Origin: a virus
Taxonomy: Duplodnaviria > Heunggongvirae > Uroviricota > Caudoviricetes
Strand: one strand, 5' to 3'
IMG/VR virus record: IMGVR_UViG_2706794686_000007
DNA length: 33,508 nt
A program made the translations under genes and the position numbers. Positions 27,791 through 28,361 of the stretch are shown in pieces (position 1 is the first letter of the stretch; each line of letters begins with the position of its first letter). Below the pieces are notes generated by a model. The model was not told where the DNA came from. It was given only the letters and a program-made list of their open reading frames with translations, and did not search any database.

Positions 27791-28084
27791 TTATTGCAGT
27801 GTGCCTGATGCTTTATGCACGCGGTGGCGTTTAATGATGGCATCCGCTCCAAAAGACTGTGCAGATGCCTGAAATTCCGCTGAGAGAAACTGAATAATTG
27901 CAGGACTGTGATACTGGAGAATACTTGCATAAACGTCACAGAGTGACGTCGGCCTGTTATCCGTATCACGTTCTGTTTTCACATCCACTCCAATCTTTTC
28001 ATGCACTTCAACACAGTCATTGCCTGCCAACTTTTCGTCATGCGAAACATGATTAAATTCAAAAATAACGCGTACTTTGCTCAT
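27791..28084 (-). CDS. small hypothetical protein, tandem paralog A (MSKVRVIFEF…)
   Basis: Start taken at internal Met with SD AGGGG; shares MSKVxRxIFE, GVxxDxK/R, DNxP and AEF…A…SF motifs with the adjacent 28089-28361 product; AT-rich. Confidence 0.5.
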   Translation of the reverse strand: MSKVRVIFEFNHVSHDEKLAGNDCVEVHEKIGVDVKTERDTDNRPTSLCDVYASILQYHSPAIIQFLSAEFQASAQSFGADAIIKRHRVHKASGTLQ

Positions 28085-28088
28085 GGAA

Positions 28089-28361
28089 TTACCCCTGTTG
28101 ATTAAATTCATTACCGTTAATAACCCCGGAAGCCATGCCTCTGTCTTTCATGAATGCACTGGCTTTCATTGCCACAAACTCTGCGAAGTTTCTGCTTTCT
28201 GCCAGCATAACCACCCCAAAAATCATGGCGGGTCCATTATCTTTCTTCTTTATTCCGGTTGAACGTATATCCAGACTTACCCCTCTGTGCGTGCTGCCAT
28301 CAGAGTTTTTGCAGATAACATCTTCCTTGTATTCGAAAATAATGCGTACGACTTTACTCAT
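28089..28361 (-). CDS. small hypothetical protein, tandem paralog B (MSKVVRIIFEY…)
   Basis: 90-aa ORF, AT-rich; paralogous to 27791-28084. Confidence 0.5.
   Translation of the reverse strand: MSKVVRIIFEYKEDVICKNSDGSTHRGVSLDIRSTGIKKKDNGPAMIFGVVMLAESRNFAEFVAMKASAFMKDRGMASGVINGNEFNQQG

What the first reader, a model, noticed from the sequence alone, without database searches (positions are those of the whole stretch)
27791..28361. Tandem paralogous small proteins in an AT-rich early-region island
Two adjacent minus-strand ORFs (about 97 and 90 aa) start with MSKV(V)R(V)IFE(F/Y) and share further motifs (GV-x-D-x-K/R, DN-x-P, AEF…A…SF), so they are diverged tandem duplicates. Their region is visibly AT-rich, between B and gam where transposable phages carry accessory early genes. 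A duplicated, fast-diverging small early protein is typical of inhibitors of host functions or defence systems. No family recognised.
Basis: seen in the sequence. Interest (0 to 1): 0.6.

Follow-up and report, generated by a model that had tools for sequence, protein, structure and literature searches.

The report
Paralogous small early proteins, Mu-like prophage
Two neighbouring small genes in the early operon of an E. coli Mu-like prophage are true ancient duplicates of an uncharacterised family, and they form a sharp hotspot of allele replacement, which makes them reasonable but unproven candidates for proteins that bind a variable host or defence component.

Summary
ORF1 (28089-28361, 90 aa) and ORF2 (27791-28084, 97 aa) lie on the minus strand between kil and gam in the early operon of an E. 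coli Mu-like prophage. Their GC is 43%, against 54.5% for the window.

Direct similarity is weak (22% identity, E 6e-4) and mostly N-terminal. Paralogy is nevertheless confirmed. An HMM built only from single-copy homologues in Salmonella, Serratia and Edwardsiella Mu-like prophages hits both ORFs over nearly their full length (E 9e-18 and 2.5e-8).

The family always sits after kil and directly before gam or DUF3164. Two copies occur only in the E. coli lineage. Mu gp7 (E6) is a possible remote relative.

Both genes are coding (dN/dS 0.30 and 0.35) but evolve faster than their neighbours (0.06-0.22). They are replaced as gene-sized allele cassettes inside otherwise 95-100% identical flanks.

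AlphaFold predicts a beta-hairpin plus a long helix. Nothing matches in Pfam, NCBIfam, PADLOC or the PDB; both fall in PHROG families of unknown function.

No function has been tested. My best guess is a non-enzymatic binder of a variable host or defence protein, made during lytic growth. Interest is moderate.

The parts
28089..28361 (-). ORF1, 90 aa (RefSeq WP_000049428, 'hypothetical'). This is the divergent upstream paralogue: phrog_4107, pI about 9.2. The predicted fold is a beta-hairpin (aa 6-18 and 24-35) plus a helix (aa 44-73).
   Evidence: Its ATG overlaps the stop codon of the upstream 93-aa gene (ATGA at 28358-28361).
27791..28084 (-). ORF2, 97 aa (RefSeq WP_000049310, 'hypothetical'). 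This is the conservative paralogue: phrog_2230, pI about 6.3. The predicted fold is a beta-hairpin (aa 4-19 and 25-39), a helix (aa 48-77) and a short strand (aa 81-86).
   Evidence: It starts 4 nt after the ORF1 stop and ends 11 nt before the gam ATG.
28358..28639 (-). Context: a 93-aa early gene, phrog_1518 (labelled 'host nuclease inhibitor'; that label is not validated). It is not related to ORF1 or ORF2, and it is absent or replaced in some related prophages.
28641..28907 (-). Context: a Kil-like gene (phrog_2679). It is 33% identical to Mu Kil over the C-terminal 39 aa.
   Evidence: Homologues in related loci carry PF26843 Kil_protein.
28908..29135 (-). Context: a 75-aa gene directly after B (phrog_3375, unknown function). 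It is a second variable gene of the operon, 75-99% amino-acid identity among E. coli prophages.
29132..30073 (-). Context: the MuB-type AAA+ transposition protein.
   Evidence: PF09077 E 7.8e-25; PF13401; phrog_296.
27219..27779 (-). Context: gam (host-nuclease inhibitor Gam family). It is partly hidden by a masked N run at 27359-27628.
   Evidence: The visible termini resemble Mu Gam (sequences).

Best explanation
ORF1 and ORF2 are genuine protein-coding paralogues of one small-protein family. The family comprises phrog_2230 and phrog_4107, and Mu gp7/E6 is a possible remote relative. I found it only in the early operon of Mu-like transposable prophages of Enterobacterales, after kil and directly before gam (or DUF3164).

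Each protein is about 90-100 aa, soluble and of near-neutral to mildly charged pI. No polar residue is invariant across the family, so there is no candidate catalytic residue. The predicted fold is a long N-terminal beta-hairpin packed on a helix of about 30 residues. Such a small module probably needs to dimerise.

The genes sit inside the repressor-controlled early operon and have no promoter of their own. They would therefore be made only on infection or induction.

My most likely mechanism is that they act stoichiometrically, binding a host protein that differs between strains. That target could be a defence component or another host factor that matters during lytic transposition. In the E. 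coli lineage the gene duplicated, and the upstream copy (ORF1) diverged strongly and became basic, which would add or change a specificity.

Shown here: that the genes are coding, their paralogy, their fixed synteny, the lineage-specific duplication, the localised allele replacement and the raised dN/dS. Inferred: early expression, dimerisation, binding as the mode of action, and the nature of the target.
For: Coding and constrained.
- dN/dS is 0.30 (ORF1) and 0.35 (ORF2) over 19 protein alleles each.
- The core strands and the first half of the helix have dN/dS of about 0.05 in ORF1.

Paralogy. The intermediates-only HMM hits both ORFs (E 9.4e-18 and 2.5e-8), and hhalign gives 99% and 91% probability.

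Fixed position in Mu-like prophages.
- Edwardsiella.
- Salmonella.
- Serratia.
- One unassigned contig.
- The pair is kept even in a divergent E. coli-type prophage that lacks the 93-aa gene.

Hotspot of allele replacement.
- In IMG/VR E. coli prophages, B, kil and the 93-aa gene are 97-100% identical in protein where present. ORF1 ranges 79-100% and ORF2 57-100%.
- In five of six prophages compared, flanks stay 91-100% identical in nucleotides. ORF1 is 73-96% and ORF2 67-97%. Breakpoints fall at the gene boundaries and the two genes vary independently.
- In complete E. coli genomes the adjacent 93-aa gene is at least 99% identical to the window in 197 of 230 matching records. ORF1 is only 80-90% identical in 207 of 229. 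ORF2 has a 60-80% allele class in 26 of 233.
- In ORF1 the variation concentrates in the hairpin tip, the loop before the helix (dN/dS about 1.0) and the second half of the helix (0.64).

No sign of an enzyme or a DNA binder.
- No match in Pfam, NCBIfam, PADLOC or PDB sequences.
- Family-wide, only structural hydrophobic residues are invariant or nearly so.
- pI is 4.6-7.9 for ORF2-type proteins and about 9 for ORF1.

Operon structure and neighbours.
- Overlapping or closely spaced start and stop codons, and no promoter or terminator signal above chance on the minus strand.
- The neighbours kil and gam are host-directed early functions (SEE region; PMC4553209).

Composition. The family genes are 6-16 GC points below MuB in every host examined.
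Against: - No functional evidence of any kind exists. No literature mentions these proteins.
- Average dN/dS is below 1, and no segment robustly exceeds 1. Relaxed constraint combined with recombination could produce the same pattern.
- Most E. coli records are O157:H7, so the allele counts are phylogenetically biased.
- The structure models are of moderate confidence (pLDDT 78 and 67). Both were computed from the same combined alignment, so their shared topology is not independent evidence.
- Dimerisation was not modelled.
- A fixed syntenic position across genera is also what one expects of a phage-intrinsic function.
Confidence: 0.4

Rival explanations
1. The family is a phage-intrinsic accessory factor. 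It would work with the phage's own machinery, for example amplifying replication (an 'arm'-type function), handling DNA ends together with Gam, or modulating MuA or MuB, rather than binding a host protein.
For: - It has a fixed position directly upstream of gam in prophages of four genera.
- Its core is strongly constrained, dN/dS about 0.05.
- The Mu SEE region holds genetically mapped but unassigned functions such as arm and cim (PMC4553209).
Against: - The gene stays in place when gam is replaced by DUF3164 in Salmonella prophages.
- The candidate phage partners (B, kil, the 93-aa gene, gam) are 95-100% identical in most prophages compared, while ORF1 and ORF2 alleles are swapped freely and independently. 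A tightly co-adapted phage complex should not behave like that.
- The family was not found in the B-homologue loci of Sodalis, Symbiopectobacterium, Rheinheimera and Brenneria.
Confidence: 0.25
2. The family modulates Kil. It would act as an antidote or timer for the toxic upstream Kil protein.
For: A Kil-family gene (PF26843 or phrog_2679) lies upstream of the family member in every locus examined.
Against: - Kil is 100% conserved in most prophages where ORF1 and ORF2 vary strongly.
- Nothing resembles a toxin-antitoxin pair.
- In Mu, the possible relative gp7 is separated from kil by gp6.
Confidence: 0.08
3. The genes serve the lysogen. The proteins would protect the host cell against other phages (superinfection exclusion or defence).
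For: Polymorphic small prophage genes at variable loci are often defence-related. This is general knowledge, not tested here.
Against: - The genes are embedded in the early lytic operon, with coupled start and stop codons and no promoter signal above chance.
- By established Mu biology this operon is shut off by the c repressor in lysogens.
- There is no PADLOC match.
Confidence: 0.07
4. The proteins are largely dispensable. A drifting duplicate pair under relaxed constraint would give an apparent hotspot through neutral divergence plus recombination.
For: - Their dN/dS values are the highest in the operon.
- Occasional frameshifted, truncated or fused variants exist, for example P0029, P0034, P0051, P0052 and the ORF1-ORF2 fusion P0030.
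Against: - dN/dS of 0.3 overall and 0.05 in the core shows sustained purifying selection.
- Intact copies are present in about 230 complete E. coli genomes.
- The family is retained at the same position across four genera at 22-36% identity.
Confidence: 0.1

Closest known systems
Phage Mu gp7 (E6; Mu_7, AAF01086; phrog_10252), an uncharacterised early protein
   Same: - Same size (87 aa), and the same region of the early operon, after kil and before gam.
- Low GC relative to its neighbours: 42.0% against 48.3% for MuB.
- A collinear alignment that preserves the N-terminal M-x-K-V-I-x-E strand, the glycines at the turns and the hydrophobic helix.
- Weak but consistent profile signals: phrog_2230 E 0.009 over the full length, and hhalign E 1.8e-4 over 70 columns.
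- gp7 orthologues are the only sub-threshold hits of the family HMM among 4864 ORFs.
   Different: - Homology is not established. hhalign probability is only 48%, and the intermediates-only HMM gives E 4.2.
- gp7 is not adjacent to gam; gp8 and gp9 intervene.
- tblastn finds no similarity.
- gp7 also has no known function.
PHROG families phrog_2230 and phrog_4107 (unknown function)
   Same: - ORF2 matches phrog_2230 and ORF1 matches phrog_4107 over their full length.
- The Salmonella, Serratia and Edwardsiella homologues also fall in phrog_2230.
   Different: PHROGs keeps the two as separate families. Here they are shown to be one superfamily. The families carry no functional annotation.
Mu Gam and Mu or lambda Kil: small host-directed early proteins of temperate phages
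   Same: They are immediate operon neighbours, small and dispensable for basic growth. They work by binding rather than catalysis: Gam on DNA ends against RecBCD, and Kil against cell division (PMC4553209; PMC3961180 for lambda Kil).
Small early-region host-protein binders of Pseudomonas Mu-like phages (Tip of D3112, Aqs1 of DMS3); recalled from my own knowledge, not checked here
   Same: They are small proteins encoded early in transposable phages that bind host proteins.
   Different: Different phage group and genomic position. No sequence comparison was run here. This is a functional analogy only.

Membership tests
phrog_4107 (ORF1) | Full-length match to the family HMM | tested here: met
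   E 1.7e-54, residues 1-90 on profile positions 1-90 of 90.
phrog_2230 (ORF2) | Full-length match to the family HMM | tested here: met
   E 1.8e-38, residues 3-97 on profile positions 1-88 of 89. ORF1 does not reach E<=1 against this profile.
One superfamily containing ORF1 and ORF2 (tandem paralogues) | Both are significantly similar to a third, independent set of homologues over most of their length | tested here: met
   The intermediates-only HMM gives ORF2 E 9.4e-18 (aa 2-90) and ORF1 E 2.5e-8 (aa 1-76). hhalign gives 99.0% and 91.2% probability.
One superfamily containing ORF1 and ORF2 (tandem paralogues) | Same predicted fold | tested here: inconclusive
   Both models show a hairpin plus a long helix. 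They were built from the same combined alignment and have pLDDT of only 78 and 67.
Mu gp7/E6 family (phrog_10252) | Significant sequence or profile similarity | tested here: inconclusive
   No phrog_10252 hit for ORF1 or ORF2 at E<=1. gp7 against phrog_2230 gives E 0.009. hhalign gives 48% probability, E 1.8e-4. The family HMM gives E 0.02-0.8 for gp7 orthologues only.
Gam host-nuclease inhibitor (PF07352) | Match to the Pfam model | tested here: not met
   No Pfam hit for either ORF or for any of 21 family members.
Kil (PF26843, phrog_2679) | Match to the family model | tested here: not met
   No hit.
Known anti-phage defence proteins (PADLOC-DB) | Match to any of 5027 models | tested here: not met
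   0 families for ORF1, ORF2 and two homologues.
Phage anti-defence or host-takeover proteins (functional class) | Small, made early, at a variable locus with allele turnover | tested here: met
   Size and operon position. Hotspot. Early expression itself is inferred, not measured.
Phage anti-defence or host-takeover proteins (functional class) | Demonstrated binding or inhibition of a host or defence component | not testable with these tools
   This needs genetics or biochemistry. No curated anti-defence sequence library was available, and no paper mentions these proteins.

The most novel reading that the evidence does not exclude
The family (ORF1, ORF2, their Salmonella, Serratia and Edwardsiella orthologues, and perhaps Mu gp7/E6) is a new class of polymorphic counter-defence or host-factor inhibitor in Mu-like transposable phages. 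Gene-sized allele cassettes would set which host variant is neutralised. The E. coli duplication would give the phage two specificities. This would also assign a first function to a Mu early gene that has been unexplained for decades.
Probability: 0.25. Interest if true: 0.7.

Novelty: new member of a known kind. Interest (0 to 1): 0.4.

Why it matters
Most genes of the semi-essential early region of Mu-like phages remain unassigned, even though Mu is a model system.

This work adds three things:
- It merges two 'unknown' PHROG families, and possibly Mu gp7, into one family with a fixed position next to gam.
- It shows that in E. coli this family is the sharpest diversity hotspot of the early operon.
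- It gives a concrete, testable candidate for a host-interaction or counter-defence locus. About 4% of complete E. coli genomes carry it, including the O157:H7 Mu-like prophage.

If function is confirmed, the natural allele series is a ready-made specificity panel. If not, this remains an ordinary uncharacterised accessory gene pair.

Tried and rejected
- Direct homology to Mu proteins. tblastn of both ORFs against 50,697 phage records found only two Stx-phage records carrying an inserted Mu-like phage, and nothing in Mu itself. BLASTP against Mu gp5 to gp14 found nothing for ORF1 or ORF2.
- Relationship to the adjacent 93-aa gene. Rejected; shuffle z-scores are -1.1 and -0.1.
- Family databases. 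Pfam, NCBIfam, PADLOC and a PDB sequence profile search gave no hits.
- Fold searches.
  - Foldseek against BFVD found nothing at E<=1e-3.
  - The AFDB50 library was unavailable.
- The exhaustive HMMER search of 1.84 billion representatives gave only 19 hits. The long repetitive proteins among them (P0071-P0073, P0080; 6-11 short stretches each) were set aside as likely compositional noise without inspection.
- DNA mimic or DNA-binding protein. Not supported by charge; pI is 4.6-9.7 with small net charges.
- RNA element or antisense gene. No Rfam match anywhere in the window. Promoter and terminator scans are at chance level. Plus-strand ORFs over the region have no support.
- Allele-specific ORF1-ORF2 co-evolution, as expected for an obligate heterodimer. 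Not supported, because allele classes combine freely.
- Literature. Seven full-text searches gave nothing specific.

Full report
**What the window is.** The window is most of a Mu-like transposable prophage of Escherichia coli, read on the minus strand. The genes run in this order:
- A transposase, 30147-32234;
- MuB, 29132-30073 (PF09077, E 7.8e-25);
- a 75-aa gene, 28908-29135 (phrog_3375);
- a Kil-like gene, 28641-28907 (phrog_2679);
- a 93-aa gene, 28358-28639 (phrog_1518);
- ORF1, 28089-28361;
- ORF2, 27791-28084;
- gam, 27219-27779;
- homologues of Mu gp11 and gp12.

The 1-kb stretch around the finding is 100% identical to chromosomal prophages of several E. coli strains. It occurs in 232 of 5426 complete E. 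coli genomes, with up to four copies per genome. RefSeq calls both ORFs 'hypothetical protein' (WP_000049428 and WP_000049310). [quoted passage not shown]

**Checking the observation.** Both ORFs exist as described, at 90 and 97 aa, and begin MSKVVRIIFEY and MSKVRVIFEF.
- They are tightly packed. The ORF1 ATG overlaps the stop codon of the 93-aa gene (ATGA). ORF2 starts 4 nt after the ORF1 stop. gam starts 11 nt after the ORF2 stop.
- No promoter-like or terminator-like signal exceeds chance, and there is no Rfam match.
- GC is 42.9% and 43.5%, against 52-55% for neighbouring genes and 54.5% overall.
- Low GC is a trait of the whole family. In Edwardsiella, Salmonella, Serratia and Mu itself, the corresponding gene is 6-16 points below MuB.

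**Are they paralogues?** Compared directly, the evidence is thin and mostly N-terminal.
- BLASTP gives 22% identity, E 6e-4.
- The shuffle z-score is 6.0, falling to 2.2 (p=0.04) once the first 11 residues are removed.
- hhalign of the two E. coli family alignments gives 83-88% probability over only 33-45 columns.

The question was settled with intermediates. An exhaustive profile search of 1.84 billion representative proteins found only 19 hits. Among them are 93-100-aa proteins (P0075, P0076, P0079, P0081, P0082) from Serratia, Salmonella enterica and Edwardsiella. A scan for MuB relatives independently turned up a 100-aa homologue in Edwardsiella anguillarum (L003 7524-7826).

An HMM built only from these six sequences contains no E. 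coli ORF1 or ORF2 sequence. It hits ORF2 at E 9.4e-18 (residues 2-90) and ORF1 at E 2.5e-8 (residues 1-76). No other of 686 ORFs from the window and the Mu early region scores below E=4. hhalign gives 99.0% probability (80 columns) and 91.2% (74 columns). The two genes therefore belong to one family along essentially their whole length.

ORF2 is the conservative copy, 22-32% identical to the single-copy proteins. ORF1 is the long branch, 11-23% identical to everything else. PHROGs files them separately as phrog_4107 and phrog_2230, both of unknown function.

**Synteny.** In every locus recovered, the family member follows a Kil-family gene, sometimes with the 93-aa phrog_1518 gene in between. 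It lies immediately upstream of gam, or of a DUF3164 gene that replaces gam in two Salmonella prophages.
- Outside E. coli it is single-copy.
- The two-copy arrangement was seen only in the E. coli-type prophages. That includes a divergent one (L078) that lacks the 93-aa gene and carries an ORF1 allele only 57% identical in protein.
- No member was detected in the MuB-homologue loci of Sodalis, Symbiopectobacterium, Rheinheimera or Brenneria.

So this is a lineage-specific duplication, or the capture of a divergent homologue, of a gene with a fixed position in Mu-like prophages of Enterobacterales. It is not a random insert.

**Mu itself.** Mu has no detectable homologue by tblastn or BLASTP. 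Mu gp7 (E6, 87 aa) gives weak but mutually consistent signals:
- phrog_2230 E 0.009 over its full length;
- hhalign of a gp7 family alignment against the full family: E 1.8e-4, 70 collinear columns, but only 48% probability;
- gp7 orthologues are the only sub-threshold hits (E 0.02-0.8) of the family HMM among 4864 ORFs from 39 loci.

I treat gp7 as a possible remote relative. This is not shown.

**Evolutionary pattern.** I compared 41 IMG/VR loci carrying the pair.
- Protein identity to the window is 94-100% for MuB, 94-100% for Kil and 94-99% for the 93-aa gene where present.
- It is 79-100% for ORF1 and 57-100% for ORF2. The values fall into discrete allele classes that combine freely.
- At the nucleotide level, in five of six prophages compared, MuB through the 93-aa gene are 97-100% identical and gam through gp12 are 91-98%. 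ORF1 is 73-96% and ORF2 67-97%, and the breaks fall at the gene boundaries. In the sixth (L078) the 75-aa gene, kil and the 93-aa gene also differ, while gam to gp12 stay 96-98%.
- The first 30 nt of ORF2 stay almost invariant even between allele classes (dS 0.02). They lie at one edge of the exchanged segment.
- In complete genomes the adjacent 93-aa gene is at least 99% identical to the window in 197 of 230 matching records. ORF1 is 80-90% identical in 207 of 229. ORF2 has a 60-80% class in 26 of 233. Many of these genomes are O157:H7, so the counts are not phylogenetically independent.

Nei-Gojobori dN/dS values:

| Gene | dN/dS |
|---|---|
| ORF1 | 0.30 |
| ORF2 | 0.35 |
| MuB | 0.06 |
| Kil | 0.11 |
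| 93-aa gene | 0.13 |
| gp11 | 0.16 |
| gp12 | 0.18 |
| 75-aa gene | 0.22 |

Within ORF1, the two strands and the first half of the helix have dN/dS of about 0.05. The hairpin tip has 0.34, the loop before the helix about 1.0 and the second half of the helix 0.64. These segments are short and the estimates are noisy.

The genes are therefore real and constrained, yet they are the fastest-changing and most often replaced genes of the operon. The 75-aa gene is a second, milder hotspot.

**Protein properties.**
- AlphaFold2 predicts a long N-terminal beta-hairpin followed by a helix of about 30 residues for both proteins. ORF1 has pLDDT 78.4 and pTM 0.61. ORF2 has pLDDT 66.6 and an extra short strand.
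- Both runs used the same 23-sequence combined alignment. The shared topology is consistent with paralogy but is not independent proof of it.
- No Pfam, NCBIfam, PADLOC or PDB sequence match exists.
- Across the family only hydrophobic structural positions are invariant or nearly so: F8 in all sequences, V4 and I7 in at least 90%. That argues against catalysis.
- ORF2-type proteins are mildly acidic to neutral (pI 4.6-7.9). ORF1 is mildly basic, pI about 9 in most alleles. They are neither DNA mimics nor obvious DNA binders.

**Interpretation.**
- Shown: two coding paralogues of one family specific to Mu-like phages, a fixed position, a lineage-specific second copy, and a gene-sized hotspot of allele replacement with raised dN/dS.
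- Inferred: the genes have no promoter of their own and sit in the early operon, which the Mu-type repressor silences in lysogens (established Mu biology). They should therefore be made only during infection or induction.
- Best guess: a small, non-catalytic and probably dimeric protein, with variation concentrated on loops and one helix face, surrounded by nearly invariant phage genes, is best explained as a stoichiometric binder of something that varies outside the phage. That would be a host factor or a defence component.
- Main rival (0.25): a phage-intrinsic accessory role near Gam or the transposition machinery. Conserved synteny favours it. The persistence of the gene when gam is replaced, and the free shuffling of alleles against invariant phage partners, weaken it.
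- Less likely: modulation of Kil, a lysogen-protecting function, or a near-neutral drifting pair.

**Literature.** Seven full-text searches found nothing on these proteins, their accession numbers, their PHROG ids or Mu gp7.

**Verdict.** 'Fast-diverging accessory early proteins' is supported in a relative sense. The inhibitor function remains a hypothesis. This is an uncharacterised member of a familiar class, the small accessory early genes of temperate phages, with an unusually clean hotspot signature. It is of moderate interest and is mainly useful as a well-defined experimental candidate.

Noticed in passing
window 762-1030, 23402-23664, 27359-27628: Three runs of N, 269, 263 and 270 bases long. 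The third hides the middle of gam and lowers the apparent GC in the composition profile. The window's gam ORF (186 aa with the Ns) is 10 codons longer than the RefSeq Gam (176 aa) in the otherwise identical strain.
   Followed up: partly
window 28908-29135 (-): The 75-aa gene directly after MuB (phrog_3375, unknown function) is a second variable spot. It shows 75-99% protein identity among E. coli prophages and dN/dS 0.22. In L078 it is replaced by unrelated 43-aa and 139-aa genes.
   Followed up: partly
window 28358-28639 (-): The 93-aa gene matches phrog_1518, which is labelled 'host nuclease inhibitor', and some RefSeq records use that name. It has no Pfam or NCBIfam match and is unrelated to Gam, so the label looks unvalidated. 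It is absent or replaced in L022, L056, L057 and L078.
   Followed up: partly
P0030 (E. coli, 67 aa): This is a natural in-frame fusion: ORF1 residues 1-49 joined at an 'FG' dipeptide to ORF2 residues 78-97. It amounts to a deletion spanning the junction of the two paralogues. Only a single record carries it.
   Followed up: no
L054 5303-5941; L058 5304-5942 (Salmonella Mu-like prophages): gam is replaced at the same position by a DUF3164 (PF11363) gene. In L054 this is followed by DUF5420, while the upstream family member is retained. DUF3164 may be a functional substitute for Gam.
   Followed up: no
window 27791-28084, first 30 nt of ORF2 (28055-28084): The 5' end of ORF2 is almost invariant at the nucleotide level (dS 0.02) even between allele classes that are about 68% identical elsewhere. 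This could be a recombination boundary or a constraint on translation initiation.
   Followed up: partly
window 23001-25000: There are further low-GC stretches (35-45%) in the middle region around the gemA and mor homologues, partly overlapping a masked run. Not examined.
   Followed up: no
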